A model generated the notes under the pieces. The model was not told the origin of the DNA, ran no database searches, and was given only the letters and a program-made list of their open reading frames with translations. Positions 8,248 through 54,100 of a stretch of DNA of 64,000 nt are shown piece after piece. Within the stretch, counting starts at the first letter, position 1. Every line of letters starts with the position of its first letter. The position numbers were made by a program, and so were the translations under genes. Origin of the DNA: Marsupella aquatica (Eukaryota; Plantae; Marchantiophyta); NCBI GenBank assembly GCA_973895155.1, contig OZ316895.1, forward strand, positions 14,700,816 to 14,764,815, read 5' to 3'.

Positions 8248-8417
8248 CCACTATCCATATTAAAAGGAGAAGTGTCCAATACTTTTTCACATTTCTCTCC
8301 TCTAGGGATTTCTCTCCTCTAGTGTGAGACTTCCACTATCCATATTAAATGGAGAAGTGTCCAATACTTTTTCACATTTCTCTCCTCTAGGGATTTCTCT
8401 CCTCTAGGGTGAGACTT
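8248..8417. repeat. 85-bp tandem duplication (2 copies)
   Basis: ccactatccatattaaa...gtgagactt at 8248 and 8333. Confidence 0.9.
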
Positions 8418-31000: not shown

Positions 31001-32046
31001 ATTCCTGCTTCCTTTCGCCGGACGGCGTCTGCTCTCAGCCGCATTGATTGAATTGATCAGCACCTCCTGGATTTCCAAAGTGGTTCTATGGTCACTTTGA
31101 CGGAATCTGCGCTCGCCGTCTGCAGATGACGTTTGTTTCGTGTCTGTCGTCAAATTTTCCATATGTATGGGTTATCGGCAGTGCTTTGGACCATTCCTTT
31201 GGATATCTCGAAGTGATTCGTGGCAAGAATTCACTCTTCAGCTTTCATTTGTGCCGCGAAACTAGGAATCCCTCTCGACGTGCATTATATAGGATATTTT
31301 ATACTATCTGCAGATCTGCACCGTATTTGTTCTCTTGTCCTATTTGTCCCAGTTTAGACACGGAAATATAGACCTAGGGATTTCATTGAGATCTGTGAAT
31401 TACCATGTGGAGGGGTTCTTTCGGTGGTCAGGGCCGGTAGGAAACCATCGTACAGGACCCATGCTTGGTCTGATGGTGAAGTGTAATCCGGAGTACTGGC
31501 CCAGAACCGCTTGTCCTTCTATGCATCGGCATTGGCAGGAGTGTTGAGCTCGTGCTTTCTAATGATGGCCACCTGGATGCGATCTAGAGTCCTACGATGG
31601 TTACATTTTTGCCATTGGGGCGGGCGTGTCCAAGGGGCACGGTTTACTACGGGTTTGCTGTGTTGTGTGGTTACTCAGGAGTAAAGACTGAAGGGGTTGG
31701 TGTGGCCAAGGACTAGTCCATTCTAAGCAAGGAGGCCATGACCATTTGGAAGTAGGGCTCGTCAAAGCACCGATTTGCTTCGAGCCGTTTGAATTGTTTT
31801 TGGAATTGTTTGCCTTATCTTCTGAACGGAAGAATTTTTCTGTCTGCTGCTCTAACTCGCCGTGATGTTGCGTTGTGCAGAATTGTTTTGTTGGAACTCG
31901 ACTTGACAGACATATAAGGGATTTCGACCTAACGGGTCGAGTCAGCAATAACGGGGTTTTCACAATTTGAAACTGTGGGGTCCGACCAGGCTGGCAATGG
32001 TCACGCTTTGACCGACAAGCTGACGTCGAGATCTACTCAGACCAAG

Positions 32047-33369: not shown

Positions 33370-36300
33370 CGAGGATCAATTTCGAGAGCAGCAAGTGACA
33401 CTAGTCAGCGTGATCTTCTTTCGAAGTTTTTCCCTTGCAGGAGATTCGAGACAATCTTGTCGATATGGCAGTCAACACATTTATGAGACATAGTTAGCAA
33501 CAAATTGCAATAAGAGCTTTCATTCTTTCAACCACTGAGGACTTGGGTTGTGAGGATTTGCATCCCTGCCGAGCAAAAGTTTTCCTTCTCGTAAACAAAC
33601 AGTCGTAAGCAAGTAGGAATGTTGTCGCCAGTGACCAGGTTCTCGTTTCGTTTTTGTCGATGGCCTGATGACGGTCCGGACGATTGGTAGTCGTTGATAC
33701 AGTTGAGCTGAGTCAATATGTCAAATAATCTCTTGTGTAAAAACTCTTTGGCTCGCTTCAAATCTCTTCCGTATGTACCATGTGGGCTCCTCAATTTTTG
33801 CAAGGAGTACTTACTACTGTGTCTGTGCCTAACATTTTCGCACAGTCTCAGTATCATGAATTGATCTCCTTCGTCTCTATATCTAATTTCCAGTGTCCTT
33901 GACATGTCGGCAGCGCACTGTTTATGATGAATATGGTTATCGCCTTGAGCTAAATTTCTCTGCCCTGTTGCCACGTGTACAAAACCACTTCGCTGGGATC
34001 GAACAGTATAATATGATGGTCTCTTCTATCAAGTTTGAGCAATAATTTCGTCTTGTGTCTAAATTTCTAATCTTTTGCACCAGCTCTTTTATTCGTATAT
34101 GTCGTTCATCGCGGTGTTTTGTAGCAAGCCAAATTCTTAGTTAGGAGCCATTTGTTGCTTAATCGTTAACTGTCTGCGAACGCATTTCCTCTTGTAACGA
34201 TCTGGATTGGATCGGTTCATCCTCGAGCTGGTATTGCTCCCGCTGTATCACTCCTGTTCAAGACGAGAGCTGATTTAATGACCTCAAAGCGACTGCAACA
34301 GATGCCGCGTTTAGACCCTCTTTGTTAGGCTCATGGCTCCGCACCAGGGCGAAGATGCCATTACAGTTGAAATTGAACTGAGTTGAGGATTTGTCTATTC
34401 AATCTTGTTTGTGGCTGACATTTTCATTACATGACTCCGTACTATCACTCCGTACTCACTCGACCATTGTCATCTTTCTGACCAAGATCCATCCATATGA
34501 AGGCTTCTCACATGGACTCGATACCGGATTACCTGGTCTTGATATAAGATCAATTTCTTCCCTCCAGCTGCAAAAAAATTACTACTTATACTTGACTTTC
34601 CCTTGGGCTCTGATTGTCGGTGTGAAAGTTGCCATTCCAATCCCTTGTCATCTGTACCACGTACCTGACAATTCCTTGCTCGCCCGTGTACTTCTCGATT
34701 TGCGGATATGTCGTGGCCCAGCTGCGTTACTTTCTCTGTAATAAAGTTGCCGGTGATCAGCTTGCTCTCATCACAGACAGGTGGGCGTTGGATTCCACGA
34801 GGATGCGCAAAGGGCCCTGACTGCCGAAAGCACTTTCGATGCTTTTAATACATAGATTCAAGTCATCTTTTACAAGGTAACCAAAACCATGAGCTCGCAA
34901 GCTGCTCCTCGATGCATGAATGTCGAGTCGAAGTGCTGTAGTATCTATCTATCCTCCATACACCTATTATTGATTGGGCTTCTCCCTCACATGCTAGACC
35001 ATCCGCCCGTGGGCCGCATGATGGTGAGCCGGATAGGTTGGTAAGTAGGATGGCAGGATCTCCGTGAACGCGTGTGGCCCGAGGCGGCAAGCAAGTACGA
35101 GGGAAATGATGAAAGCTTCAACCTCCGTGTTTGTCTCGATGGTCGGCCAGGCGATTGGTTCAGCATCACACCATCCGCATTGCAGGCAGAGGAGAATTTG
35201 ATACCTCGCTCAACCCTTTGGAAGGAGCGACAGGTACATTACCCAATACCGGGTTTCTTGATAAGACCCAAATTCCCACTTCATCATTCTCGTCAGCTTT
35301 TCTATCATGTTGTTGCAGGTTCTCTCACATGCGACGTACCGTGCTCGATTAAGTTGTTGGTTGACTTCTCTCGTGCTCGATTCGTGGACGAGAGGTAGGA
35401 AACGATAACGGTATCGTTATGTGGGGTGTGGAGAATTTAATAGAGAAGGTAAAGAATCAACGAATTGGGTTTCGGTGTGCTGGCCAGGGGATGACACCGG
35501 GACCTCCTTTCAGTCTAGTAGGTGACCCTCCATTTTACTTCCCACCAAACTTGTGAACCCTTTGCTTTGTAGTTTCATTCAAGGTTGTGGGCATCTTTGT
35601 TCTTTATTTTCACTAGCCTGATTCCCCATTCTTTGAACCTGACCAGAGATGAAGACAAAAAGGATTTCATGCTATTTTCCTTTCAACTTTGCCCATATCC
35701 CTGTTGTTTTGTCCACTCACACCTTCAGTTTCGTCCTTATTCAGAGTTAGGCTATGGAAAGTAGCTTTGCATCATGCTTTACTAATAAGATGTCCACCAA
35801 ACTTGTGAATTTTACTTGAAGCTAAAGCCACAATGGACCTACAAGGTGTCTCTGGCCATCCCATGGATTGTGATTGGGAGAGTAATCACTTTACACCTAA
35901 TCATGAGAGAATTTGGTTGCACATGGATGATGAAACATTCTAGTTGGCTGTTTACTTGCAATTTTTGTTAGGGTAAGGCGATTGTGAATCTAAAAGTCAA
36001 TTGTCCACCTGGACGGGCTGGACTGAAGGTTCACAATTTTTATGTATGTTTGAAATGTTAGGTAGTTGTGTAGTTGCAACTTTTGAAAGTGCTCCTTGCA
36101 ACTAGAGCAACACTCTTTTAAAAATAGTGTTTCATGTAGCTCCGCAACGACAAAATGACTCGAACTACTCCTTGTAATAAGGACAATGCGCTTTGAAAAA
36201 TAGGATTTCGTAACAATGCTACTGCAAATTAAAATCTCCCGTAGCTCTGCAAGGGCAAAATTACTTGAACTACTCCTTGTAAAAAGAGCAAAGTTCTCTA

Positions 36301-38401
36301 AAAGTTATTCTGCAACAACATTCTCTCAGGTAGTACAAGCACTTCACAAATATCATTGCCTTAGAATCAAGGCTATGTGTACAAATGCCCTTGAATGAAA
36401 ATCTGTGTATCCACTTTTCCTATCCGCCAAGCTTGTGAACCTTAATTTGTATTTTCATTGAAGGTTGTGGGCCATTTGTTTTTCCCTTTCCTGTGCCCCA
36501 AACGGCCGACCAAACTGGTCAAAATTACTTAGCTGCCCGTGAAACTAACTAAACTACCAGGCCTGCCCCCATTGGTACATGGGAGGCTTGACCAGACTAG
36601 CCTAACCCAAGATGACACATAATTGGTATGTGGACACATAAAGGCTTGTAACTTGTCCAAGCTAACCCCTTCCAACCATAAATGCGGGGGAAATGCGGGG
36701 AAACAAATGGGCTAGGTTTTGCTTACAGACAATAGCCTGCACCTGTGTCCTGGTGAATGGTGGAGGGGAGCCTGGTCTGCGTGAAGGTACAGTTGCAGGG
36801 GTTAACACAGGTGAACGGCAAGCCTCCATGTGTCCACAAACCAATTGCATGTCATATCAGGTTACTCTAGTCAAGGTAGGCCAATCCACATAAGAGATGG
36901 GCGCAACATGATAGTTAGATTATTTTTGGGCAGATTAATGATTTCAATCAGTTTGGGGGATAGGATAGTAAAAAAACACTATGGGCCATAATCTCCTCAC
37001 CAACTTGGCCAGGGGATTGGTTCACTTTAAGTCTATGTGATAATTTCATAACCCCCTGTTCTCATTTCTGTTGTGTAGCAAAGGTGGAGTTTTGGCCCCT
37101 GATTTGTTCACTTTGGGACCCTGGCTTACCTCCCTCTCCCTCCCGGCATTGTTGCATCCTCCAAAGATCATCATTTACTGATGGGTAGATAGTATTTTAG
37201 TTTCACGGCAAAAAGAAGATGATTAGATGAATACTAGCCTGATTACCAGTTCCTTTCACATAAATAGGGATGTAAAAAATGAACTTTGCAAAAAAAAAGG
37301 ATTCCATGTATTTCCAGTGCATCTTTGCTCCTATCCTTGTTTTGTTGTATGAACCCCCACTGGCAGCCATGCCCTCACTTAGAGTTATGATGTAGAGTTT
37401 TCACTCTAGACAGTAGGCCCATGGAGTAGCTTCCCACTTTCGACCATGCCCTCACTTAGAGTTACAATCGAGAGTATTCACTCTAGAAACTCTAGACAGT
37501 TGGCCCATGGAGTAACTTTGGATTGCGCTATATGAGTTAGATGGCCAAATAATTGCATGAGGGAGAGACTGAGGGAGAGACTAAGGTCTTGATAAGCCAA
37601 AACATGGGTAGCTAAGCATTGGCAAACAAATAACTATTGGATAAAGGAAAGACTAATAAGTTATATAGTTCGTATCACAGGCATAAGCTTTAGTATAGTA
37701 CTATAAAACAGGTCAGTTCAGCAAATAATGCTGCATTGCTGCCTACCCTTGTTTGTCACAACATGGGCAAAAGGGGGGTCAATGGAATCAACTCTTAGGT
37801 ACAGAGTACATCACTATATTCATTAAAACTGAAATTATAAAGGATATAGGGAAATTTGGCGATTTAAAAACATAGTTTTAGGCATGAATATTGTAAATTT
37901 GGAAGATGAAAAATGAAAATTCAAGCATCATTAAATGTAAATTTGGGGACAAAAAAATGAAATTTTGGGAAAGTAAAATATTAAATTGGATGATATTAAA
38001 AAACATTTGGGTGATAAAAGTGTTCATTTGGTTGGAAAATAGATAGAATCTAGTAATAACATATAAGCTTGGATAGCATCTATATTCAAAACATTTAGCT
38101 TGAGTAAGATATCTAACTAAGCACCAATACAATGGAATGACTATAGTGTCTAGACAAAGTTAACTAGGATGATATCCAACCTACTAGAAGGAATGAAATG
38201 GCATCATTTTCTAGAATTAAAATATACTAAGACAAATAAAATAATAATTATAAGAAAGTCCATTCAATAGCTTTGAGAGATCATAGAGTATTAATTTGAT
38301 TGTCTTGTTCTCTCACTTTAGACCAACGCATGGAAATCAACTCGACCCTCTTAATCACAAGTCATTTGAGTGGAGACTTGTAACCTACGAGTTCTATCAA
38401 T

Positions 38402-41400
38402 CTACTCATCAATTATACCTTCCATGTAAATTTTGAGAGTTTTCAAAACATTCTTAGGAATTGTCAAACCTCTATCCATAATATTTTGTTCTTTAGCACC
38501 TGACTTAAACCCATACATTGCAGAATTTGCAAACTGCCAACTTTGAGTAACATTGTCAAACCCAGGATCCAGCTCCCAAGTCTTAGTGGTTTGAAAGCAA
38601 CGTTCATATCGAACATCATCCTTCCATGTTTAGGCCTCCACCATTGTACTTGGAACATAGGAGCATTCCTAAGAGGAATGCTCTCAACAGACGTTGAAGA
38701 AGACCCTTCAATATGTTGCAAATCTGTTGAGGGAACCTCATGGTTTGGATCCACACCACCCAAAGCTCGAACCAACCAGAAACGCCCTTTGCCATTCTCC
38801 TGTTCCCATTCATCCTCTGGACGTAAAAATACAAAGTGACCTTCTTGAATATCTTGTAGAGGAATCCAACGTGCAGGTTCTCGCTCTTGTCGTGCACCAA
38901 CAAAGGGTGCAGCTTGATCTTCCATCTCTTCCATGTACTCATTTTGAAGGTCCATCATCTCTGGATTTTGAGAAGGTTCACTTGACGGCTGAGATGTCCC
39001 CAAAATCATCTTGTAACTTGTGCCATGGTTAGTCTTTGGCCAAAAATCAGTTGTCAATGGCAAATGTCTTTCCTCCTCCCCTTCTATTGTAAGTTCCTCG
39101 GACAGTGCTTGCACAAGATTCTCCCAATATTTGACCAGAGGAAATCTCTCTTTATATGCTGCAGAGGTCTCATCCTTACAACTTTTCTTCAAGAAATCAA
39201 TATAGCGATTAAGGAATGGGATGATTTCTCCAGCCGTCTTTTGTACATCCCCAGATATAGGTTTTGCAAATGGTTGGCCTTCCGGTAAAATGAGCGCATT
39301 TGTGATGGGATCAGTTCTCCAAATGGACCTCCCCATTGCCGGAAGCCAAGGTTGCTTGACATGTGCTTTATATTGATACACTGGCACATTATCCCTCATG
39401 GAGAAAAGAAATGCCACTGGTTTTGAGTGACCTTCTATCTCTTTCACCTGGAAAGTTTTCAAATACTCCTTGTAAGATGCAACCTCTTGAATCAATCGTG
39501 GTACATGATGAATGCTTTCACACTCCCAAACCTCAGCCATCAACCCCAAGAGGGTAGCAACCTCTTTGTATCTGACCTGTTTGGATACTTGAGAAAATAA
39601 TGCATCCACGTCTTCATGGGTGTGGCCAACCATGAGGAATGACATTTGCACAGTTTCAAACACCCCCCTGCTAACAAGCTCAATGCAAAATGCCATCACA
39701 TATTGATTTTTGTTATCTTTCCCTGAATTGTCCATTTGCAACGTTAGGTGCCTTGGTAAGGGCTTGAAAGAGCCCCTAGTAGTCTCAGGATCATCCTTAG
39801 AACCAACATCCACTATGGTTGACTTTTTAGTCTCCTGACCATCTTCAATGCCTTGAAATCGAACAATTGAAACATTTTTGGGTTCCAAGTAACCGGCCAG
39901 AAATGCTTCAAAGTCTAGAAGGGACTGAAATATTGGCCTAGTTGCATTCCAATTCAATCCCTCAAGAAGGTCTCCAGTTTTGTCTCCTGTGTAATCTTCC
40001 AAATCTCGGAGGCATTTGGCCAAAGATGTCACGGTAAAGTCTGCATCTCTAGGCCAAAGTCCAGTCAAACTGAAATGTGCATACACTCCAGGATCTCTTC
40101 CATGGGTTAACATCCCAGTAAGAGCAATAGGCAAAGGCTGACCACTACCAGAGAGGGATTTTGGAGTGGGGACCAACCTGGGGATCCAAGTCTTGGCTTG
40201 ATCCATCTTATCGTGAATAATGCAAAGATAGTTTTGAGGATCCTTCTTTGCAAGAACCCTATGAGCATAGTAAACATATCTTCTTGACATTTGTTCACGA
40301 AGATGTCGCGCTCTTTTCTCTTCAATCTCTGCACGCTCTTTTTTTCTCTTCTCCCGCATCAATTGATCTTTGAACTCAGTGCAAAATGTGCACTTGGCAA
40401 ATGCACTTCCCTTGTGAAAGTCAAAATTATCAAATGAGTTTTTCCAGATGTTGTACATAGTAACTTCAGTAACCTTAGCAAACCCATCTAATTCCATCTT
40501 GGTGAACACCTCTTGGAAAATCTTCTTCTTAGTAAAAGAAGATGGGAGCCGATATTCAATAGTGTCAGTGCCGTTGGACCCACCATAGGGAAGATGTGGC
40601 ATTGGTTCCCCATTTTGGATTAAAATGGACTCCAACAAGGCGCGAGCGTGCAAAGTGCTTGATCGTGTCTTCCGTTGTCCCTGATTTCCATGGAAACCAA
40701 TTGTGCAACCAGCTTCGTATTGATTTTTGTAGTCATAGTACTTTGTTGTATTGAACCCATGCATTTTAATAAATGCATCTTTACAAACCACACGTCCCTT
40801 TAGAACAAAAAATCCCTTTCTCTTGACTTGCTCCTCTCTACACCCAAAGAGACTAAAGATGTGACTTGTTTTGTTGTCACTTGACATTCCATGGTATTCC
40901 CTCCTCATTGCCTCTAAGTCCTCCCTGGGCATGTTCAAGCAACACTTCAGCTTGCAACAACCTTCTCTTTGGATGGAATCAATGGACTCCTCGTTAATTT
41001 TCAAAAGTGCCCTCGACTCCAAATGCCTTTTCTTCCTCTCCTCAAGATCAACTTTTGTCCTCCTAATGAAATTGTATGGTCTTTTTGTAGGTTTACCATC
41101 ACCATCCGAATCCGGATCGCCCTTAGTTCGACCCGACTCCATCCACTTCTCTGAAACTTCCTCAAGGATATCCCCAAGAAACCTTTGAGACGAAATCAAT
41201 AGAAGGGATTTGATTTCCCACCTCACCAAGCCAGGGGTACCAACACGGATATTTGGAAATAATCCGGGTTCATTGATATTCACAACAGCAACACCAACAT
41301 GATCTGCACCAAGAAGTTCATCGTCAACGGCACCTGTTTCAAATGGGACCGTGATAACACCTGTTGCAACCTTTCGACAACGAGAAGCGTCATACAAATC

Positions 41401-42105
41401 AACCTCCTCCGCCATCCAGTTGGAACGTAGTGTAAAATCTTTTAATGGAAGATCATTGAAAATATTTGAACTACCAAACACGCCAAAATCTCAAAGAGTG
41501 CCCTTTCTAGAAACATGCGCAACATCCCAGATAACCCAGGTATGCAAGGCCTCTGCTATTGTATCAGCTCCAGGGTGCGAGTATGACAATTTTTGATTTC
41601 CCTTAACAATATCAGATATTCTTATACTGATGCGACCAACCCCGAGTGTTTCAGTATGACAAATATCCATCGGATTTGTCTTGAAAACAACTCCATTTGC
41701 AACCAACTGATCAAAAATGAACATCTGAACTTCATCCCCTTCCTTGAACACGTCCTCTTCAACCCTTGCATCAATTTTGGATTTATCATTTCCAGCATCT
41801 CCAGCCAAAGAGAAATCATCGACATTGATTCTTCGGTGCTGAGTTGATGACCTCAAGTATGCCAATGCACAATCCCAAATCACGCAGGAGTCAATTGCCT
41901 CAGCCAATGTAGAAAATTTGGGCAAAGGAAATGGAAGTTGACGCGATCCATCAAAACACTTTTCGATCAATACCCCAATTCGATTGTCCCCTAGACAAAT
42001 GTTCTGTATAGTATCCTGGGGGTCAACCTTTTGAACTATCCCAATTGCCGTTTCAAATCCATCAATCACCAATGACACTTCATCCCCTCGTGTAAAATTG
42101 ATCAT
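38402..42105 (-). pseudogene. DD(E/D) transposase (Sola-like/DUF7869-type) with three N-terminal Tnp1/En/Spm-like domains; one in-frame stop and one late frameshift
   Basis: Motifs CIIHDKMDQAK, LQMDNSGKDNKN, FLMVGHTHEDVDALFS and FAKCTFC. ORFs 41491..42105 and 38464..41481 share a frame, separated by one TGA. A shifted frame from ~38620 (RYERCFQTTKTWELDPG...) continues to TAG at 38402. Confidence 0.85.
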
Positions 42106-42232
42106 GATAGCGGACTATCTGTATTCAAATAAAGTTAGAAATTGTTAAGTTCCCCATGTTACAATCATGTTTCAAAATCTGGACTCTCCTCCAAAAAATA
42201 TTGTAAAATCACTCAAAACCCTAAATACATTC

Positions 42233-42560
42233 AAGTCGGGTCGGAATTATTTCGACCCTCCTCCAACATTATGTCTTGAAATGATTGAATTGACTAAACA
42301 TTTACAAGTCGGGTCGGAATTATTTCGACCCTCCTCCAACAATATGTCTTGAAATGATTGAATTGACTAAACATTTACAAGTTGGGTCGGAATTATTTCG
42401 ACCCTCCTCCAACAATATGTCTTAAAATGATTGAATTGACTAAACATTTACAAGTCGGGTCGGAATTATTTCGACCCTCCTCCAACAATATGTCTTAAAA
42501 TGATTTAATTGACTAAACATTGATAAGTTGGGTCGGAATTATTTCGACCCTACTCCAACT
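42233..42560. repeat. 73-bp tandem array (4.5 copies), each unit with palindrome GGGTCGGAATTATTTCGACCC
   Basis: Units start at 42233, 42306, 42379, 42452 and 42525. A degenerate inverted copy lies near 42660-42682. Confidence 0.95.
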
Positions 42561-43722
42561 ATTAAGTTGAAATTATGTCAAAACTATTTGTGAAACTATC
42601 TTGCTTATGCTTTTATATACCAGTTTAAAATGCTAGTTAAGATGACATAGTCAGGTCGGCACGAAATAATTCTGACCCACTTCTAGAAACTATGTTAGTA
42701 ATCACATAAAGGGGTACAGTAAGTTCTACACATGCTAGACTGTGGATAAAGGTCTAGAATGAGTAAAATATATGATCTAGAACCTAATGTGTAAATCTTA
42801 ATCTAGGTTTGGCTTAAAGGTATTGAATTAGATGTAGTTGAGCTAGTACTTCTAAGATAAATAAATAAAATCACTAACCTGCTCCGCAATATATCTCTGT
42901 CCACCCTTGTACAAGCTAAATGGGTACCTTGGATGCCAGCATTGTAACTCTTAGCACCACAGTGCTCACCAGTGCCCTTACTAAACCTTGCATTCAACCA
43001 TGCGGACCTAAACAAGGCACTCGGACAGAGGAGAGTCAGTGATCGTACCAATCACTGTCTAAATGACAATGAACCAAAAAATGGATTGTGGGAGGTCTAT
43101 ACTCAGTTTGAGAGGCAAAAAGCCCACATATTACCCAACACACGAGTGGACACCAACAGATCGGGCACGGGTGGATGAGGCACGCACCCAGCACACAAGT
43201 AGACATCGGATAGGGTGTCAGCCAATCACTCACGAGTGATAGGTGAGTTGCGAGCACACACCGCTGACAGCTCGGAAGTTTAAAATTGGTAGGTGAGTCG
43301 CGAGTGGTCGTGAGTGGTCACACCATCGGTGACTCACGATCACATGCACCGAGGAGGGTCTCCATCATTGGCGCGCATTGATGCCTCCGTACCCTCTCGG
43401 ATCCTTGCCTCCTCGGACTCCTCGCTCGCAGGGGGTATAGGAAGGCAGGCCTTGCGCTTGAGGCCTCATTTCCTTGCCTCCCTCTTGCCTCCTCTCTCGT
43501 CTCCTCACTCCTTGCCTCCCTCTTGCCTCGCTCTAGGGCTTTTGTTTTTGCCTCGCTCTTGGGATTTGTTTTCCGCCTCGCTCTAAGGCTTTTATTTCCA
43601 CCTTGCTCCCTTCCCTTTTGGGTCGCTCCCTCGATCATTGTTTGCCTGTTAGTGCCCTCTTGCAGCCTGTGGCATTCTCCATTGCTGCCACGTGTCATCT
43701 TAAATCTCACTCGCCCCTTACA

Positions 43723-46700
43723 ATGTCTACTTCCTCCAGTTCTGAAGCTTCCACCACCTCCGCCAGTTCTCAAGAGTCATTGAACTTCAATTATAACTCT
43801 CTGTATGAATATGACCCTGAAGACCTGGATGTCCAAAAATTGGTTAACAATGCGTTGGAGGCGTCAAAGAAAGCCCAGTTAACTTTTCCACGTAAGGCAC
43901 CTCCTGCTTCAACTTCTTGCCTCGCCCTAAGGGCGAGGCAACTTTACTTTAATTTGGATTTCAAACTTCTTATTAGGAAAATTTCTATATTCCTTTGCAG
44001 TCGCCTCGCCCCAAGGTCGAGGCGACGTCTACTTCATTCTAGATTTCTTGTTGCTCCGAAGGCGTATTGGACCTTGTATCTTACATTAATAAAGGATCTT
44101 TAGCTATATTCTATTTTTTGCCTAGCTCTTGGGGCGAGGCGATGTCGTCTGCATTCCTCAAATGTAGTTTGCATTCCCAGAAGTTGCCTCGCCCTTGGGG
44201 CGAGGCAATGTCCTCTACATTCCTAAATGTTGTCTGCTTTCCCAGAAGTTGCCTCGCCCTTGGGGCGAGGCGATGTCCTCTGCATTCCTAAATGTTGTCT
44301 GCTTTCCAGAAGTTGCCTCGCCCTTGGGGCGGGGCGATGTTGTCTGCATTCCTAAATGTTGTTTGCTTTCCTAGAAGTTGCCTCGCCCTTGGGGCGAGGC
44401 GATGTCGTCTGCATTCCTAAATAATGTTTGATTGCTTGGATGAGGTGGCAGGGCTAATTGCACTAGGAGCAAAGAAGATTTTGCAATCTTCTATTTGTCG
44501 CCTCGCCCCAAGGGCGAGGCACCTTGAAAGTTTTCCACATGTCAATGTTAAAAATATGATGCTGACCATTTTGTTTTCAATGTTTCTTACCAGGAAAAAA
44601 TCTTGAGAAGCCGGAGTTAAATATTATGGACGAGGATATCAAGGACTTTGTTTTCCCTGACCAAGATACTCTAGGATTTAGATGGGCACTAGAAGTTGGG
44701 GTGTCGGCGGAAGGCAGTCTCTTGATTTGTTTCAAGGGCCTCACAAGTCAATTGAATGACCGCAAGACAATTGTTACTCTAGGTCCAGTCGTCCTTGTGA
44801 ACACGGACAACAACCGCAATGCAACGATTATTGTTGAGTCCAATGAGAAATCTCAGTGGATGAGACTTCTAGTGCCAATAAAACTCTACTCGACTTTACT
44901 GAATGTTGAGTGGATGGCTCGATTGGAGATAAGCGTAGCTGATATGGGATTCTTCCCAGATGGAGTAACAATTGATCAGATGTTTGAGAAGACGCGTTCT
45001 CAAATAAGTGGAGTTGACCTAGTGTTTGGATTTCTCTACGTAAAGAAGCACATGCATGACAATGCGGACAGTGTGGACCCTCCGTCTACTTGGATAGTTC
45101 AAAGGATGATTGATAAGGCACATTTTTCATACGAGCAAGCAATCGACAAGAGTTTCATTTTTTGTCCAGAGTTTCAAGAGGCCGCGTGCCGGACGTGGAT
45201 TTCAGAGATGAAGAAAAAAGAAGCAAAGCATAAGGCAAAGGAGAGAAAGAAGACAGTGGAAAGAAGTGCGCAATCAAAGACAGAGAAGAAACGAAAGCTT
45301 CAAGAGCCGGTTGTTCAACAAGAGAAACAATCTGGGAGTTCACGCCGTAAGAAGATGGCTAAAAAAAATGAAGATGATGAGGGCCCCCAAAAAAAGCAGA
45401 CAAAGAAGGCAAAGGTTGCAAAATCAAAACCAATGTCAGGGTCGACTTCAAACTTTGTCTTGCATCCAAAGGATGATATGTGTCCGACAGAAGGACCCAA
45501 AGAAGATGATGTGCTCAAAGGCCAAGAGGTTTTGCGTAATATTGAGCAGTATTATACTTTTGGCATCCGCGAAGTTTTTGATATTCCTGTAAAAAGTATT
45601 AATCCGCCATCGGCCATTTTTGTATATCGAATGTTCAATCTTTTGCATGCAATGGAGATATCAAAGTCTATGATGAAAAACCCTGGACAGGAACCACAAG
45701 TTGCTGATTTGATTCCGTATCACGAGAGCACTAAACAGTTGCTTCATTATGACAACACACCTCAGGATAGGAAAGAGTTTTTGATTGGTGTGAAGAAGCA
45801 TGAGATCCAATTCCTTGCCATCAGTGGCCAGCATTCTGCAAGAGCTGCCCAATGGATCCAAGGGTGGGCCGAGACTAACGCCAAGCTGACAGATCTTGCC
45901 AACAAACTAAAGTATAGGAAAGCAAGGATCCTATCTGACCTCACTCCGAAGACAATTTTGGTTGAACATTCAAGTTTATCGAATGCTGTCAATGATACTA
46001 TGCAATTTAAGTCTTGTTTTTTAGAGACTATTGTTCATGCACGAAGGCAGTTTGAGGAGTGCGGGAAACCGCCGCGTCCAGGGATTGGGACCAATCAAAA
46101 TACAGACAGGAAAAACTATCAGGTACATGTTGGAGCAACGCAAACTATTCTTGATCCGCTTTGTTTAAAGATTGTCAATGGTAGAGGTTTGCCTTGCCCC
46201 AAGGGCGAGGCTGCCTTTTCTTGTTTTCCTTGGTTAGAAGATTAAAGCAAATGTTTGCCTCGCCCTCAGGGCGAGGCAACCTAGACTAGTCTCTCTAAGA
46301 ATAATTCCCTAGTTCCGTTTCAGTCAATTGCGGTTAGATGTAGAGGTTCGCCACGCCCTTGGGGCGAGGCGGCTTAGCCTGTTTCAAACATAGGTATAAA
46401 TTTTCTAACATATGCATTGTACCCTGAAACTAATGTCAAGTCCATTGGATATGCAGGATTGGTTTGCCCTGGCAAAGGTTACAATGGGGAAGTCAAGCCT
46501 AAAGAGCATTTATTGGTTACTTTTTGCCGAAGATGAGCTCTTTGAATTATGGCGGAACGTGTGTGCAAAATGGTTGAGTGGGAAGCTCCAAGACGGGGCT
46601 GGTGGGTATGGAGGGCCAAGACCCCCAAAATTGATCACTCCCGGTACCTTTCGATGCTTTGAAGGAGAGATTAGTAGCAAACAGATAATTGAGATCTTGA

Positions 46701-48654
46701 AGGACGTTGAAGAGGAGCGTGTCTTGCTGAAGAAGGATATCACCAACAAATCAGAGCTTGTCGCAATGGGAGACTTGGCCCTTACAATCAAGATAATGTC
46801 CAAATTGAGAACAGCCATTATTGGCTATTTCGTGGAAAAGTATCGTGAGAAGTTTCCTGTTGGCACATCTTGGGAGTCTCTGGTGATATTGTTGCCTTCC
46901 TTGAAATCTGAGCTTGAGATGACAAAATTGAGGAGAGCAGCGGGTGAGGTTTACCTCAACAATTCATTGAAGAAGAATGTGGTCAAGGAGAGTTTCCCAC
47001 AAAGTCTGATGGTCAGACTAGATGGGTTGTATTGTAAAGAATTTGGTGGGATTGGTCGTTCTCGCACGGAGCCTTTCTTGACATTTTTTAGTGAGAATTT
47101 GATGAAGACGACCGTGCCGGAAATGCTACAAGAGCCTTCGCCTTTGTGTCCTCTTGCCATTGTTGACTTCAGTAGGCTCCGACAACATGTTTGGACCGAT
47201 GCTGAAATTATTGCATTACTACAATACATTGTGGATCTTCCAAGAAATCCAACAATTGTTGTTGTCATGACTATGCATCCGGGGCCACTTGCTGCAAACA
47301 TTTTGAGTGCCCTTAGGAAATTGCAACATGAAAAGGGAATGGACATCCACGTCGACTATGGGAGCTATCGACAGAGTGATACACCAGTTCCAGAGGGCTT
47401 ACTTTTCAGTTGTGGTATGGAGGAGATAATCTTTGCAGGAATCACCACTGAGGAGAAATTTGATTGGAAGCAAGTGTTCAGGCCTGGATTTAATTGCCAA
47501 TTTTCTTACAATTCGGCGATCGACCCTGATTTCCAAGTGGAAGACAAGACGGAGAAGCGAGATAAGAATAAGAGTAAGACAAGTAAGGAGACAGTGACTG
47601 CGTCAACTTCGGCATTTCACATTGGAGATTTCTTACGAAAGGCTCCCATGTTTGAGATGGTGGGAAGTAGAGGTGGCTTTGTGAATATTCACGCTAAGCC
47701 AAAATGTATGCTGCAGAGTATTATTGAATTTTTTTCGGCTGAAGGGGAGACTATACTTGACTTTTTCTCGGGAAGACAGGTTATGAAGGTGTCATTGTTG
47801 TGTTTCAGAGAATGCTTTGCGTATTCAGACACTGAGGATGAATATGATTTCACTCAGGCATATGGAAGGGTTCTCTGCGAGAAAGTTCCTTCCATAATGA
47901 GTGACCGGATGGGCGGTTCCAAATTTGGTAGAGCCCGCGATGGGGTTTCCGCGCATGTTGGTGCCAAAGAAGGCGTAGACCAGGGCGAAGATGATATTGA
48001 GGAAGGAGAATTGGGTCACGACACAGACGACAGGGTCACCCGAAATTTGGATGAACGTGGAACACAAGTGGTAGGTATTCCCTACTTTGGTGTGGGGTTG
48101 GCTGATGTTGTGGGTCGACCTGAGGGCGACCCACCAAGAAATCCCTTTGCCGGTGTAGAGAATTGGATGCACCAATCGGACCCAGATCTTACATCGTCCA
48201 CATCGGACGCACATTGGAAGGCAACCGCAGATGGTCTAGGCAATATTGACGTAGTAGAATTGGGAGAAATGTCAGACATTGCGCTTGCAAAGGAGGATGA
48301 TCGTCAAGTACCTGAGACCGTTGCAAATGAAGAAGAGAAGGCAGGTGCTTCAAATCCTCCCGTCTCCTCTATATTGCTCATCAGAGACTAAATTGGTTTT
48401 TACAAGTGCTTCTACAGGAAGCCCCGTAGTATTATCATTTTCACAAAATTCTGGATCTGAGATCGGCAGGACTGGATATATGAAAACAGTCCGTCCTGCA
48501 ACTCATTTTATATGGAGAAATGGACCAAAGGTTGGAATGATAGAATCACTAGACGATGCTCCAAAGATAATGGCAAAATCAGATTACAAAAAACTGAACT
48601 TGAGACTGAGCCCAGTTTTTGCACCCCCATCCTTTGAAGAGCAACTTCCCAGTG
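43723..48654 (+). CDS. Spliced transposon cargo gene: unknown N-terminal domain, K-rich segment, ParB/Srx-like domain, N4/N6 DNA methyltransferase-like domain
   Basis: Frame-compatible GT-AG introns 43892-44593 (phase 1), 46123-46456 (phase 0) and 48345-48417 (phase 1) join the ORFs. ParB-like FDIPVKSI...YR...FLAISGQHSARAA. MTase-like HAKPKCMLQSIIEFFSAEGETILDFFSG...ECFAYSD. The 3' end is uncertain. Confidence 0.72.
43917..44522. repeat. Intronic array of 21-bp palindromes GCCTCGCCCTTGGGGCGAGGC (~65-bp tandem unit in the core)
   Basis: Copies at ~43919, 44003, 44120, 44186, 44251, 44315, 44380 and 44500. Three more at ~46191, 46257 and 46350 in intron 2. Confidence 0.93.
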
Positions 48655-49088
48655 GTATCAATTCCGGGATACAGAGTGTTCTAGGTGATCAAACAATAGA
48701 TGAATTTGGGCATTTTAGCATTGGAAATTATTAGCCCATTCTTTGGTTCTTGGTATTTTAATGACAATCTAAGCTTTATCTTTGTAATAATATACTTTTT
48801 TACAGACCAAAGTTCCGTCGTAGAATCTCCTTCCTCAAAGGATTTTGTTGGCATTCCCTCGGAAAGCGTTGCTGTGGAGGAAGGGTTTGACCCAAGTATA
48901 CTTTGGATCTAAAAAATGGCAATTGAATGTAATTAATGTTTTTCTAGGAGGGTCGCCCCAGGGTCGTTCCTCTCTACTTCAAATGCTATAACAAAGTTTG
49001 TTTGATTTCAAATTTTGAGAGTTTTCCTCTGTAGTAATTGTTTAAACTTTGAGTCGCATTGACTAAGGGCTTATGTTAATGTTTCCAG

Positions 49089-50128
49089 AATTCACTCCAA
49101 TACTACACTCTCCGATCCGGCGAAAGCTCTTGGTTCTTGACCTTAACAAGATTTGTTGGGATTGCATTAAGACCAGAAGCTCAGGACCATGGCGAAATCA
49201 GACAAGTTTACGTGGTGTGCACTGGGGGAGACGTGGAGGGTTTAATTTCATGTATGTGGAGCGCCCATACCTCCACGAATTTCTATATGCAGCTTTCATG
49301 GTTTTTGACGTCGCAATTTGGACCTGTGCAAGGAGGCCAAAAACAATGGACTTAATGGAGTTGATTTTCACTAAGGAGGAGCGATAGAAGTTCAAGTTTG
49401 TCTTTACTCAAGAAGATACCTTTGATAGTTGCATCCAAAGGCCAGATATAACAGATGGGAAGGCCAATTTACTTCTGAAGAATTTGCAAACCATTTGGGA
49501 CCGTTTTCCAGAAAAATATGATGCTTCTAATACAGTTCTTATTGATGATTCTCCATTGAAGGCATTTTTGAATTATGACATGAATGGATTGTTTCCAAAT
49601 CCATTTACTCACACAGCTTCAAATGACACTTTTTTGCCCGAGATATTATGGCCGTATCTTTGCAAATTGAGAAAGGCTTACTGCGTTCAACATTATATCA
49701 CTGTCAACAATCCAAAGTGGTCTGTTTTCAATTTATTAACAAGCAAGGAGGATCATGCTGCCATCTATGCTCTTTTGGAACAGAAGTGGGGAGATTGTCG
49801 TTGTATCCATAGGGAGTTTGGAACCATCTTGGATGTGACTCCTGAAGAGATTCCTTGGGACGGAAAGAACGAGGTGCAGCATTACCCACCACTGGAGACG
49901 TGGACCACGGATGAGATCGAAGAAACTGCAAACGTAATACTTGGAGACAACTATTCTGGTCCTCATACACAAAATAGAAGGTATTTTATTTGGAAAGTTC
50001 TCAGAACTAGGGATCTCACCAATAAGTTTAAGAACCACCATGCGAGAGATACTTGCAACCGTGACATCCGCTATGATAAATCAGGAAGCAGACTTTCTTG
50101 TTCAAATGAGTTTTGTCTTGATCATTAG
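49089..50128 (+). pseudogene. FCP1/NIF-type HAD phosphatase-like domain with Cys/His-rich tail; one in-frame stop (49385)
   Basis: RKLLVLDLNK, ERPYLHEFL, FDVAIWTCA, LLKNLQTIW, NTVLIDDSPLKAFLN. ORFs 49073 and 49484 share a frame. Confidence 0.8.
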
Positions 50129-51174
50129 GAGATAGGGTTGCTCTAGTGCCTACCCTGAATTGTACATTCATATTATGTCTTGAAAGGATATGTTTTGAAC
50201 ATGTAGGATAAAGTAAATAATTAGGATATATGCTTAGTGTGAGGCTCTCTCACTGGACTGGATAATTTAATAATTATATAGTGGATCAATCTCATTTTGA
50301 CCCTTGATTTATGACCATCTATATTTTTTAATTTATAGATGGTCTGAGTGGTATTGGCCTCTGATTTTTGGACTAAATTAAATTACTCTAATTTTCAAAT
50401 TAATTAGAATATATGATTTAAGTTATTATTAAACATTTGGGTGAAAAAAAACAAAATTTTGGGCATTCAAAAGTGTATATTTGGGCTGAAAAAATTAGCT
50501 TTTGGGAATGCTTTAATAGAAATTTGGCCTGAACAAAAATAACTTTAGGGTTCATCTTATGGACTTTTAAAAGTACAGTTTTAATGAATATAGTGATGTA
50601 CACAGAATCAGGAAAAGTGTGTGAATGTTTAAGGGTTTCTATAGCATTTATTGCATGTAGAGGCAACTTGACATCACCTACAGTCTACCGTGTATATGTG
50701 CAGCGTGTATAACTGCATTTCATGGGTAACTGTAGGGTGGTCATGTAATCCCTCAATAATACAGCATTTGTTTTTGTAAATGCACCAAAAAATGCATGGT
50801 CTGTAGGGCATTTTCCATCTATAAGAGTACATATGCATTAATCCATATGTTAGAAGCATTTATTGACAAGTGCAGCAGATAACTACACATTGTAGTTTCA
50901 TGCACTTATCCAGTTGGATTTGCACTACGGGGATTATGGATATGAGAAGTCGATGCACATGACCTGACGAGACATTTGTGAAATGCATGAGCGATTTCTT
51001 AGGCACATATTGGAAAGTGCAACATGCACTTATGAAGAAGTGCATAACGTGGATAACTGCAGGCTTGGGGTGTCTTCCTGGGAGTCTACACTTAGACATG
51101 GTAGGCTGTATTTACCCTTCCTGGCATATGGGAGACTCTATACATTGCAAAGGTCTAATGTCAAGGGTGCATGA

Positions 51175-54100
51175 TGTGGGGAGAAATCAGATCAGGAAAA
51201 ACACTCCAAACATACACGTGCTCAATAGTTACGTGGTTCGCCTCAAGGTTGGCTACGTCCACGGGAAGACCAAACTTTATTAACGGTTATGTGTCTACTC
51301 AAGCATCACCATAGCTCTCATCTCTTCAAGCTCTCCTCTCTTGCTATATCCCTGGTTCTCTCTTGAGAACTCTCTTGTTTGTTCTCACACCACATAGAAG
51401 TTGAAGAGATAAGGACCAACCCTTCAACTAGGGTTTACTCTAACCCTAGTTAACATACTAACCATAGTTCAACCCAAGACTGAGTTAACCTCTACAAACT
51501 CCCCCTTGACTCACGTCTTGGGAGGGTTCATAGCATTGTCTTTTCCTTACAAGTTCCTCCGCGGGACGTTCAAGACAGTAGGGCCAAAAGACCCTCCCCC
51601 TAATGCAAGGGTTAACTAGAACTAAGCCGTAGCCGATAAGCCATCGGATGGAGTACTCATATAAAGACATTTTCTTGGTTAACTCTATATTTACAATATT
51701 TGTAAATAATTACAATGCCTTGAAAAACTATTGGAGTCTAATACTTTGGTAAAAGCATCCGCTGGATTAAGCTTTCCATCAATCTTGACAAGCTCAAATT
51801 CATCATCCGATAATGCCTGTCGGATGAAATGATAGCGGACATCAATGTGCTTTACCCTGCCATCCATCACTTGATTCTTGGTAGTGTAAATTGCACTTTG
51901 ACTGTCACAATGAAGATATACACACTCCTGTGATAAACCCATCTCTGTGACAAGATTTTTCAACCAAATGGTCTCTGATGCTGCTTCTGCTGCTGCTACA
52001 TACTCGGCATCCATAGTAGACTTTGCAACACACTTTTGGAGAGTAGACTTCCAACTAATGCATCCACCAGCAAGTGTAAATACATATCCAGTTGTCGATC
52101 TCCTCTTATCCAGATCACCTGCGTAGTCTGCATCCACATAACCTTGAAGCACTTTCATATTGTTTGAACTTGCATCAAACAATAAACCCTTCTTAGTGGA
52201 GCCTCTGATGTAGCGCAAAATCTATTTCACTGCTTCCCAATGAACTTTTCCTGGATTTGCCATGTATCTGCTTACCTTGCTAATGGCATAAGCTATGTCT
52301 GGTCGGGTGCATACCATGAGATACATTAAACTACCCACAACACTTTCATAAGGAACTTTGGACATCAAACTTTTTTCTGTCGCATCTAATGGACAAAATG
52401 CTGCAGAAATATTGAAATGCCTTGCCAAAGGAACACTCACAGCCTTAGCATCTGCCATGTTGAATTTTGAGAGTACCTTCTCTGCATATCTTTTCTACGT
52501 CAGCCAAAGTTTGGCTTTGTTAACATCCCTGACAATCTCCATGCCTAGGATCCTCTTGGCTGTGCCCAAATCCTTCATCTTAAACTCAGAACTGAGTTGG
52601 GCCTTAAGCTTATCAACTTCGCCCCTATCCTGTGCTACAATGAGCATGTCATCCACATAAAGTACAAGGATGACAAGCTTAAAACATGTGTTGTTCACAC
52701 GCCTTATGTAAACACATGGATCGTACACGCTTCGCACAAATCCAAGCGATTTCAAAAATTCATCAAAACGCTTGTTCCACTGCCTTGGGCTCTGCTTTAA
52801 TCCATACAAGGATTTTAGCAACCTACATACCAAATTTTCCTTGCCCTTTTGCACAAAACCCTCTGGTTGCCTCATGTAAATCACCTCATCCAACGATCTA
52901 TATAAGAATGTCGTGACAACATCCATTTGATCTAAAACCAGATCAAATAAAACTACAAGAGCACATAGCAAACGTATTGTTGAATACTTTGCTACGGGTG
53001 AAAAAACCTCATTGTAGTCTATACCTTTCTGTTGAGTAAAACCCTTGGCTACCAACCGAGCCTTAAATATCTTCTCAGCATCCTCCGTGGGTCCATCTTT
53101 CTTCCTATACACCCACTTGTTGTCAACAGCCTGCTTATCACTGGGTAGACTTGTGAGTTCCCAAGTCTTGTTATCATGAAGTGATTTCATTTCCATGCGC
53201 ATCGCCGCCTGCCACTGTTGCTTCTCCATAGAAGCTAGGACCTCTCGAAATGAGGATGGATCTCCATCTTCTGTCACCAATGCATCAATAGATTCTTCAT
53301 CCAAATCCACTTGATCAGATTGAAGCCAAGTTCCATACCTTTCCCGGGCTTGACGTTTGCGAGTTCCTCTTCGCACTGAAGACTCTGGCTGATTTGATTG
53401 TACTGTGCTTTGCCTTACAGTGGTGTCAACATATTCATTATCTGACACATCCTTTCCCCTTATATCCTCTAGAGGAGGAGATTGCTCTTTGTTAGTAGTA
53501 GGGAATTGATCTATCTCCCCTTCCTTCAATGATTTTTCTTCATTGAAGGATACATCCTGACTAACAAGTAACTTGCAATCAGCTGGATCCCACAACCGAT
53601 AACCTTTAACTTCACGCTGATAACCAAGAAAAATGCATTTCTAGGCTCTAGGATCTAGCTTAGTCCTATTGTTGCTAGGAACATGTGCATATGCTTCACA
53701 GCCAAAAACCCTAAGCTTTGAATAATCAGCAGGTCGATTGTGCCATAGCTCAAAGAGGGTTTTGTAAGTAATTGCCCGACTAGGAGAGAGATTTACTAGA
53801 TAAGCAGCTATGTTGACAGCTTCCACCCAAAAGATTTGTGGCAATTTAGAGTGGCTCAACATGCTCCTTGCTCGCTCCAACAATGTGCGGTTGAGTGCTC
53901 AGCAACACCATTTTGCTCAGGAGTGTACACAGTTGTGAGATGGTGAGTAATTCCCTTATTTGCACAATACGTGTTGAACTCGCCAGAGGTGTATTCACCA
54001 CCATTATCTGATCGTAGATATCTCACATTCTTTGCAGTCTGTGTCTCAACTTGAGCTACCCATTGTTTAAAGATGGAAAGCACTTCAAACTTATGGGCAA

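What the first reader, a model, noticed from the sequence alone, without database searches (positions are those of the whole stretch)
37801..50606. 12.8-kb cargo-carrying DNA transposon with GTAC termini and a 5-bp TSD that fits no superfamily cleanly
Seen: perfect 26-bp TIRs, TSD ACAGA, a transposase gene on the minus strand and a divergent multi-exon cargo gene on the plus strand, with few lesions. Established: the D...DNxxxxNKN...GHTHxxxD core resembles Sola/DUF7869-type transposases, but described Sola groups make 4-bp TSDs. CACTA makes 2-3-bp TSDs, and Transib makes 5-bp TSDs but has CAC ends and a RAG1-like enzyme. Inference: a distinct lineage carrying its own chromatin/DNA-modification module (ParB-like, amino-MTase-like, CTD-phosphatase-like) and cognate cis arrays, possibly an anti-silencing or self-marking system analogous to VANDAL/VANC.
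Basis: partly seen in the sequence, partly recalled or inferred. Interest (0 to 1): 0.9.

Follow-up and report, generated by a model that had tools for sequence, protein, structure and literature searches.

The report
Liverwort Sola transposon with ParB-methylase cargo
This is a real, multi-copy 12.8-kb jumping gene, likely from a liverwort, whose true ends leave the ordinary 4-letter duplication of the known Sola group rather than a new 5-letter one, and which carries a helper gene predicted to grip the element's own mirror-image DNA repeats with a probably inactive methylase-like part, a design already reported in seaweeds.

Summary
The transposon is real, but its headline feature is a misreading. 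In four sequencing runs the family's contigs begin at 37810, not 37806, and empty sites in 2 of 4 runs keep one GTAC. The element is therefore 37810-50597, with 22-bp TIRs (ATCAC...GTGAT) and a 4-bp TSD, the palindrome GTAC, which mimicked extra TIR. A 4-bp TSD with a DDD/DUF7869 transposase fits the Sola superfamily; no new superfamily is needed.

The cargo is real and conserved in liverworts. It has a PH-like domain, a ParB/Srx fold and a beta-class amino-methyltransferase fold whose catalytic DPPY motif is missing in 8 of 8 aligned sequences. A NIF-like phosphatase frame follows. Eleven 21-bp palindromes lie only in its two introns.

The same layout (Sola plus an opposite-strand ParB-methyltransferase gene) is published for Ectocarpus Sola1-1_Ec32. 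What remains new is its presence in land plants, a probable pseudo-enzyme and the extra domains. Most likely the protein binds its own element and shields it from silencing without methylating; this is untested.

The parts
37806..37809 (.). Left target-site duplication GTAC (4 bp, palindromic)
   Evidence: Present once in empty sites of runs X4 and X6; family contigs start at 37810
37810..50597 (.). Whole Sola-type DNA transposon, 12,788 bp, multi-copy family
   Evidence: contig depth about 474-515 against 20 on the flank in X1 (rough; the tool warns that depth is not copy number)
37810..37831 (+). Left TIR, 22 bp perfect, starts ATCAC
37853..37990 (+). Left subterminal AT-rich TTTGG repeats, about 43-bp spacing
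   Evidence: (D5, D8)
38402..42105 (-). Single-exon transposase, about 1,230 aa: three N-terminal repeats (weak PF03017; PF26133 on homologs), C-x2-C...H cluster, DDD core (DUF7869), C-terminal domain. This copy has a stop at 41491-41493 and a frameshift near 38625
   Evidence: (P0001 and P0063 align from 42105 to about 38405)
42232..42559 (.). 73-bp x 4.5 tandem array upstream of the transposase; each unit holds the imperfect palindrome GGGTCGGAATTATTTCGACCC (5 copies)
43523..43608 (.). 25-bp x 3 array with half-site-like GCCTCGCTC upstream of the cargo start
43723..43891 (+). Cargo exon 1 (predicted)
   Evidence: ATG, GT donor, phase fits exon 2; no RNA evidence
43892..44593 (+). Cargo intron 1 with 8 copies of the 21-bp palindrome GCCTCGCCC-nnn-GGGCGAGGC, including a 65-bp x 4.8 tandem array
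44594..46122 (+). Cargo exon 2: PH-like fold (about 44623-45075), charged linker, ParB/Srx-like domain (about 45559-45999) with conserved SGQHS
   Evidence: (pLDDT 85)
46123..46456 (+). Cargo intron 2 with 3 more copies of the 21-bp palindrome
   Evidence: Calypogeia gene models P0055 and P0081 run across the same junction
46457..48734 (+). Cargo exon 3: helical region, beta-class amino-MTase-like domain (about 47078-47899; DFSR in place of DPPY), acidic linker, conserved C-terminal domain. Frameshift at 48361 in this copy
48806..48895 (+). Possible small exon that would join exon 3 to the NIF frame (phases fit; unproven)
   Evidence: against it, homology to P0055 continues past the needed donor
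49088..50128 (+). NIF/FCP1-like HAD phosphatase frame (DLNKI in place of DxDxT); last exon or a third gene. Stop at 49385-49387 in this copy
   Evidence: PF03031 E 2e-16; most copies are open here
50435..50545 (+). Right subterminal AT-rich TTTGG repeats, about 22-bp spacing
50576..50597 (-). Right TIR, 22 bp perfect, ends GTGAT
   Evidence: joint at 50597 in run X3
50598..50601 (.). Right target-site duplication GTAC

Best explanation
This is a recently multiplied Sola-superfamily cut-and-paste transposon (37810-50597, 22-bp TIRs, 4-bp TSD), likely of a liverwort, that carries a fixed accessory gene whose ParB-like protein likely binds the palindromes in its own introns and, with a probably non-catalytic methylase-like domain, is predicted to shield the element from host silencing. 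Shown: the ends, the TSD, the multi-copy family, the DDD motifs, the domain folds, the loss of DPPY and the palindrome positions. Inferred from the DDE/D families: the transposase pairs the TIRs, excises the element and makes a 4-nt staggered cut. Inferred by analogy with ParB/parS and with the proposals for algal elements: the accessory protein loads at the 21-bp palindromes, possibly gated by a nucleotide in its conserved SGQHS pocket, and spreads or blocks. The methylase fold would act as a DNA-binding or base-flipping shield, and the PH-like and NIF-like domains would recruit host chromatin or Pol II factors. This copy is broken in both genes and could move only in trans.
For: Ends and TSD. 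Sola definition (DDD, 4-bp TSD, TIR 11-1124 bp, known in moss). Transposase sits in a 21-row clade with Riccia sequences (SH-aLRT 100, quick tree, 48 of 61 candidates kept). Cargo is part of the family: depth is raised over both genes in all 4 runs; in Calypogeia fissa a transposase model (CAM6082369.1) and a cargo model (CAM6082376.1) are 7 accessions apart, with the same longest-contig length. Cargo is conserved: 93 relatives of exon 2; G411, Q412, H413, S414, N463 and R483 are 90-97% conserved while the linker is not. ParB fold: the first 15 listed Foldseek rows are all Noc/ParB/PadC/sulfiredoxin (best E 1.5e-3); the top 6 VIA rows are ParB/Srx-family, Z 5.9-7.9. MTase fold: ESM hits to PF01555 at 0.93; global hhalign to 5 phage MTases, probability 97, 237 columns, DPPY opposite DFSR. 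Palindromes: 11 of 11 window copies lie in the two cargo introns; 7 perfect 9-3-9 palindromes in the element against 0-1 in 20 shuffles. Codon-junction CpG O/E is 0.53-0.67 in cargo exons, like the host epimerase gene (0.67), against 0.18-0.49 in the transposase (z 2.3; weak). Precedent.
Against: No binding, expression or methylation data. Two distant Sola relatives (L004, L005) carry their own palindrome arrays beside the transposase, with no ParB, MTase or NIF cargo detected in the 9.6 and 4.3 kb held, so arrays can exist without detected cargo and may be transposase sites; both contigs may be truncated. No listed contig spans both genes. In Riccia sorocarpa none of the 7 named cargo tags is adjacent to any of the 17 named transposase tags (small subsets of both). 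No Foldseek match reached E 0.001 and no VIA Z reached 8. The exon-3 model was poor (pLDDT 44), and the phage MTases were picked by weak hits to the C-terminal half, so that score is biased. The CpG contrast is one copy, and two Copia frames also score 0.54. Group membership (Sola1, 2 or 3) was not tested against Repbase.
Confidence: 0.45

Rival explanations
1. Same Sola element, but the accessory protein is a transposition cofactor: it would bind the internal palindromes and compact or bridge the 12.8-kb element so that distant ends can pair, or tether it to replicating or segregating chromatin, with no role in silencing.
For: The ParB/Srx fold and conserved pocket suit DNA clamping and bridging (established ParB biology, recalled); ParB-type cargo recurs on unusually long elements; the methylase motif is lost.
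Against: The arrays are internal and intronic, not near the ends; it does not explain why an MTase fold and a NIF-like frame are kept; most Sola elements move without such a gene.
Confidence: 0.25
2. The cargo is an active 4mC or 6mA writer with a non-canonical DF(S/G/A)R catalytic loop and marks its own element.
For: The motif IV Asp is kept in 7 of 8 aligned sequences; motif I D(F/L)FSGG is kept in 5 homologs and the Lys of HPTQKP is kept. Liverworts do use beta-class 4mC enzymes.
Against: No (D/N/S)PP(Y/F/W) in any protein held; Marchantia's active enzymes carry TSPPY; the acidic SAM-binding residue of GIE aligns with Ser; P0133 has lost the motif IV strand.
Confidence: 0.12
3. The cargo is a captured passenger without a function for the element, and the arrays are transposase operator sites or by-products.
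For: Arrays occur in relatives without detected cargo; this copy's cargo is broken twice.
Against: Most copies are open at both cargo breaks; domain-restricted conservation across 82 aligned sequences and at least two liverwort genera; the same design recurs in algae.
Confidence: 0.1
4. A new superfamily with GTAC termini and a 5-bp TSD.
For: ACAGA does flank a perfect 26-bp inverted repeat in this one copy.
Against: Empty sites keep GTAC, the family begins at 37810, and other copies show other letters before it; right end at 50597.
Confidence: 0.02

Closest known systems
Sola1-1_Ec32 of Ectocarpus (PMC12477816; I saw section 5 part 2, passages, and rows of supplement 1; its FASTA files could not be read)
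   Same: Sola transposon over 10 kb; 4-bp TSD; termini start with A (AACCG there, ATCAC here); accessory gene on the opposite strand with a ParB-like and an N4/N6 methyltransferase domain; self-binding proposed; its transposase's best blastp hit is the moss Sola1-1_PPa.
   Different: Brown alga, 21.5 kb, 282-bp imperfect TIR, 1,104-aa protein described as a predicted methyltransferase. Here a land plant, 12.8 kb, 22-bp TIR, catalytic motif missing, an added PH-like domain and NIF-like frame, and intronic palindromes. Direct homology of the two cargo proteins was not tested.
Sola superfamily, including Physcomitrella Sola1 (PMC10741241 and PMC9033089, passages; Bao et al. 2009 not held)
   Same: DDD transposase, 4-bp TSD, variable TIRs, occurs in a moss, some members over 15 kb; a Ceratodon DUF7869 protein is 31% identical.
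   Different: The AWWT target preference given as the Sola1 hallmark in insects is not seen in the four flank 4-mers available (GTAC, ATAG, TAAC, TAAA). What cargo the moss elements carry I could not read.
Plavaka (EnSpm) accessory genes PAG2 and PAG3 of Bostrychia (bioRxiv 10.1101/2025.02.11.637652, passages)
   Same: ParB-like accessory protein next to tandem arrays of inverted repeats; a PF01555 methylase on the same element; self-binding proposed.
   Different: Different transposase superfamily; ParB is fused to a 2OG oxygenase and the methylase to a SET domain, in separate genes.
VANDAL/VANC anti-silencing system of eudicot Mutator-like elements (one passage; otherwise recalled)
   Same: Element-encoded protein thought to act on the element's own tandem motifs to counter silencing.
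   Different: No sequence link found or tested; VANC action is shown by experiment, here nothing is.
MpDN4MT1 4mC methyltransferases of Marchantia (bioRxiv 10.1101/2021.02.12.428880, passages)
   Same: Beta-class amino-methyltransferase fold of prokaryotic type in a liverwort.
   Different: Host genes with an intact TSPPY motif; no ParB fusion is mentioned in the passages seen; the cargo here lacks the motif.

Membership tests
Sola superfamily | 4-bp target-site duplication | tested here: met
   One site tested with empty alleles in 2 of 4 runs: GTAC once when empty, twice when filled; definition
Sola superfamily | DDD-type transposase | tested here: met
   D427 nearly invariant, D587 and D629 invariant in 18 aligned sequences; motifs listed; PF25273. 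That these are the catalytic triad, and that DUF7869 corresponds to Sola, is inferred
Sola superfamily | Terminal inverted repeats within the reported 11-1124 bp range, variable termini | tested here: met
   22-bp perfect TIR; range
Sola superfamily | Transposase groups with Repbase Sola1/2/3 references | not testable with these tools
   No Repbase sequences held; the tree has no labelled Sola reference; Ectocarpus FASTA supplements unreadable
Sola1 group | AWWT target preference | tested here: not met
   GTAC here; unpaired flank 4-mers ATAG, TAAC, TAAA (assumes the printed loose letters adjoin the junction). Ectocarpus Sola1-1 is also not described as AWWT. I file it under Sola, group unresolved
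CACTA/EnSpm | 5'-CACTA termini with a 2-3-bp TSD (recalled) | tested here: not met
   The TIR reads AT-CACTA; the AT is shared by family contigs that start at 37810, and empty sites lack the AT+GTAC that a 2-bp TSD would leave
CACTA/EnSpm | CACTA-type catalytic domain | tested here: not met
   Only DUF7869 is hit in the core; one weak PF03017 hit (E 0.098) lies in the N-terminal repeats
Transib | CAC ends, 5-bp TSD, RAG1-like enzyme (recalled) | tested here: not met
   4-bp TSD; no RAG1 Pfam hit
Beta-class N4/N6 DNA methyltransferase (PF01555) | Permuted fold, motif IV before motif I | tested here: met
   Pfam hits to motif I are below the curated cut-off
Beta-class N4/N6 DNA methyltransferase (PF01555) | Catalytic (D/N/S)PP(Y/F/W) motif | tested here: not met
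   0 of 8 aligned sequences: DFSR x2, DFSQ, DFGR x2, DFAR, DLIA, one without the strand; 4 of the 5 phage controls have DPPY, one DIPY
Beta-class N4/N6 DNA methyltransferase (PF01555) | Methyl transfer to DNA | not testable with these tools
   Needs a bench assay
ParB/Srx superfamily | ParB N-terminal fold | tested here: met
   Model pLDDT over 90 across the domain; searches agree, though single scores are modest (E 1.5e-3, Z 7.9)
ParB CTPase clamps | Arginine patch GxxR (motif recalled) | tested here: not met
   The family has SGQHS, with Ser at the Arg position; works-like, not a canonical ParB
ParB CTPase clamps | CTP binding and parS-type palindrome recognition | not testable with these tools
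   Palindromes are present; binding untested
FCP1/SCP (NIF) phosphatases | NIF domain | tested here: met
   PF03031 E 2e-16, profile positions 1-156 of 160
FCP1/SCP (NIF) phosphatases | DxDx(T/V) catalytic motif (recalled) | tested here: not met
   DLNKI in this copy; other copies not checked
VANC-like anti-silencing systems | Sequence-specific loss of methylation at the element's own motifs | tested here: inconclusive
   Only a CpG-depletion proxy, z 2.3 on one copy

The most novel reading that the evidence does not exclude
Bryophyte Sola elements have spread with a phage-type ParB-methylase fusion remodelled into a nucleotide-gated sliding clamp that carries a dead methylase and Pol II-directed domains. 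It would load at family-specific intronic palindromes and keep the element free of 5mC: a parS/ParB-like, sequence-specific anti-silencing machine in land plants, independent of VANC and usable as a programmable epigenetic shield.
Probability: 0.25. Interest if true: 0.8.

Novelty: new variant of a known kind. Interest (0 to 1): 0.45.

Why it matters
The claimed new superfamily disappears, and the case shows how a palindromic TSD can fake both longer TIRs and a wrong TSD length. What remains is useful. ParB-methylase accessory genes on transposons have been proposed, not tested, as self-modifying systems in algae. This family puts one in a land-plant lineage, with a young multi-copy element, one sharply defined candidate binding site and a foldable ParB domain, so the proposal becomes directly testable. 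The missing catalytic motif suggests that binding, not methylation, is what has been kept. My searches found no paper on this cargo in liverworts (0 papers with all four terms; searches showed none in their listings), but the founding Sola paper and Repbase entries were not available, and they may describe cargo in the moss elements.

Tried and rejected
No host genome is held, so no genome-wide TSD table could be made. An exact 22-nt TIR scan of metagenome contigs gave 3 loci with nothing else of the element; chance matches. That pattern also included the 4 TSD letters. Viral contigs: 66 stretches matched the transposase patterns and none was confirmed; the cargo alignment was unusable for that tool. 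Search for longer, fused cargo proteins: none among 6,490 candidates of 1,433-4,090 aa; weak evidence. PDB sequence searches found nothing useful. Exon-3 model, pLDDT 44: Foldseek gave only Alba and METTL14 rows at E above 0.01, not relied on; no VIA search was run for it. ESM features for exon 2: best 0.86 (DUF3723), a lead only. No RNA holder listed; this says nothing on expression. X2 and X5 showed no empty site; their contigs barely or do not cover the flank. CACTA reading (CACTA ends, 2-bp AT TSD) considered and rejected. An intron around the transposase stop was considered; no in-phase splice pair was evident. Whether other copies are open at that stop is unresolved: only 40 of about 1,180 difference rows were shown, with a change next to the stop codon and none inside it. 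The NIF translations were in the wrong frame and the LRR-gene rows on the wrong strand; these rows are discarded, and NIF was redone (no hit among 176 held proteins or 23 loci). The tree is the quick one, 13 of 61 candidates were dropped as too short, and it has long branches among the non-plant rows. Searches of earlier findings by sequence or place were empty.

Full report
CHECK OF THE OBSERVATION. The same script showed a second reading: ends moved 4 bp inward give a 22-bp TIR and a 4-bp duplication, GTAC (shift -4). GTAC is its own reverse complement, so a GTAC TSD looks like four more letters of TIR. One copy cannot decide between the two readings. No host genome is held, so I laid contigs of public runs on the window (8 runs listed; X1-X4 laid; X2, X4, X5, X6).

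THE ENDS. In one search, 9 of the 27 listed pieces, from all four runs, start at 37810; two start at 37803 with mismatches, one at 37808, none at 37806 (57 pieces were not shown). Depth in the bin 37795-37809 is 36 in X2 and 205 in X4. A start at 37806 would give about 1,500 and 4,660. Two runs hold an empty site: contigs in X4 and X6 follow the left flank to 37810 and then continue with GAGAGAATCAGGAAAAGTG... and AAGAGAATCAGGAAAAGTG..., whose last 27 printed letters match the window's right flank. For X4 the only listed difference in 37750-37810 is at 37780. The empty allele thus reads ...ACAGA GTAC A(G/A)AGAGAATCAGG. A 5-bp TSD would predict ...ACAGA ATCAGG with no GTAC. The empty alleles are diverged homologs and carry two more letters than the window just after GTAC, so they are not the exact pre-insertion state, but they keep GTAC once. 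Other copies show ATAG and TAAC before 37810, if the printed letters adjoin the junction. One joint in X3 leaves the element at 50597 and enters intron-2 sequence, which fits the right end. The element is 37810-50597, 12,788 bp, with a 4-bp TSD. Only this one site was tested with an empty allele.

THE FAMILY. In X1 long contigs over the element have depth 474-515 with 3-10 differences in 0.6-1.7 kb, against 20 for the flank; in X4 two listed contigs have 3,732 and 5,508 against 35-38. That suggests about two dozen and over a hundred close copies, but the tool warns that depth is not copy number. Depth is raised over both genes in all four runs, so the cargo travels with the family; no listed contig spans both genes. 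This copy has four breaks. Most copies are open at the cargo frameshift (48361) and at the NIF stop (49385), and X4 and X1 contigs carry 13 more letters near the transposase frameshift at 38625. The transposase stop at 41491-41493 is unresolved.

THE TRANSPOSASE. Full-length relatives align from 42105 to about 38405 as one exon. The core is PF25273/DUF7869, with HDKMD, QMDNSGKDNKN and GHTHEDVD; D587 and D629 are invariant and D427 nearly so in 18 sequences. Of 54 homologs the named ones are mostly Riccia sorocarpa, then Calypogeia fissa, Ceratodon and marine invertebrates. A quick tree puts the window in a 21-row clade with the Riccia proteins. The host is therefore likely a liverwort (inference). 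Sola elements are defined by a DDD transposase and a 4-bp TSD and occur in moss (review passage; the founding paper was not held). I file the element under Sola. The group is unresolved: the AWWT preference of insect Sola1 is not met, and no labelled reference could be placed in the tree. The TIR contains CACTA from its third base, but the CACTA reading fails on the empty sites and on the enzyme.

THE CARGO. Three exons join in frame through GT-AG introns; Calypogeia gene models cross the second junction. Exon 2 has 93 relatives among 50% representatives; all 8 named ones among the 20 looked up from that search are Riccia (7) or Calypogeia (1). Its model is confident (pLDDT 85). Residues 322-468 match the ParB/Srx fold: the first 15 listed Foldseek rows and the top 6 VIA rows are of that family, with modest scores. 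Residues 10-160 match PH-like folds weakly (Z 4-5). The ParB pocket is strongly conserved as SGQHS, with Ser where ParB clamps have Arg (motif recalled). Exon 3 holds a beta-class amino-methyltransferase fold; all 15 listed weak phage hits are DNA methyltransferases. The catalytic DPPY aligns with DFSR, and none of 8 aligned sequences has the canonical motif, while the Asp and the motif I loop are mostly kept. A NIF-like frame follows with DLNKI in place of DxDxT; it may be a last exon or a third gene. In Calypogeia a transposase model and a cargo model are 7 accessions apart; in Riccia the few named tags are not adjacent.

THE ARRAYS. All 11 window copies of GCCTCGCCC-nnn-GGGCGAGGC lie in the cargo's two introns, 8 and 3. 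A different palindrome fills a 73-bp array before the transposase start. Two distant relatives, apparently eukaryotic contigs binned with bacteria, have their own palindrome arrays beside the transposase and no detected cargo in the stretch held. Arrays alone therefore do not prove cargo binding. CpG loss at codon junctions is milder in the cargo exons (0.53, 0.67) than in the transposase (0.18-0.49), z 2.3, but two Copia frames also score 0.54. This is a weak hint only.

HOW IT LIKELY WORKS. The transposase cuts and pastes with a 4-nt stagger (inferred from the family; TSD shown). The accessory protein most likely loads on the intronic palindromes through its ParB module and protects the element from host 5mC silencing by binding, not by methylating (0.45). 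Rivals: a cofactor that compacts or bridges a long element (0.25), a non-canonical 4mC/6mA writer (0.12), a passenger (0.10), a new 5-bp superfamily (0.02). None of the cargo steps is shown.

WHAT IS KNOWN. Ectocarpus Sola1-1_Ec32 is 21.5 kb, has AACCG termini and a 4-bp TSD, and carries an opposite-strand gene for a ParB-like plus N4/N6 methyltransferase protein; the authors propose self-binding and self-modification and cite similar genes in green and red algae (section and supplement rows seen, FASTA files unreadable). Bostrychia Plavaka elements pair ParB-like genes with inverted-repeat arrays (passages; bioRxiv supplements closed). Earlier AI notes of this scan report similar layouts in an invertebrate and in a moss-like plant (unchecked, not counted as support). 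New here: a land-plant family, a consistent loss of the catalytic motif, and the added PH-like and NIF-like parts. Repbase entries and the unread supplements may already hold some of this.

VERDICT. Real element, wrong ends, known superfamily, known kind of cargo in a new and probably non-catalytic form. New variant of a known kind; interest 0.45.

Noticed in passing
window 51175-57215: Young Copia element, 322-bp LTRs 99.4% identical, with a 5-bp CATGA duplication; high depth in all four runs.
   Followed up: partly
window 1-6500: Ty3/Gypsy-type pol (RT, RNase H, integrase; 2811-5351) with strong CpG loss and a 485-bp inverted duplication at 1-485 / 694-1177.
   Followed up: no
window 31933-33369 (+) and 61959-63224 (-): Host-like genes: an NAD-dependent sugar epimerase and a leucine-rich-repeat protein.
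   Followed up: no
window 35746-37810, runs X3 and X4: These runs hold two versions of the flank (100% and about 91% identical; similar depth in X4), and X4 holds both the filled and the empty site (depth 34 and 44); this would fit a polyploid, a duplicated locus or mixed individuals.
   Followed up: no
window 46243-46252, run X3: A contig joins the element's right end to the element's own intron-2 sequence, as if one copy had inserted into another, next to a palindrome.
   Followed up: partly
L004:4500-5310 and 8280-9030; L005:30-510 and 3750-4290: Distant Sola relatives with intact 960-aa frames carry arrays of a different palindrome, TTCAGCTCGASTCGAGCTGAA-like, on both sides of the transposase.
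   Followed up: partly
L004-L018: Fifteen loci in prokaryotic genome bins encode DUF7869 relatives; most contigs are short, and L011 and L014 have split frames and (L011) simple repeats, so these look like eukaryotic contamination rather than bacterial Sola (inference).
   Followed up: partly
window 41284-42105 (-): The transposase begins with three repeats of a small domain weakly like PF03017 (TNP1/En-Spm); Calypogeia homologs share them, a possible domain exchange with CACTA elements.
   Followed up: no
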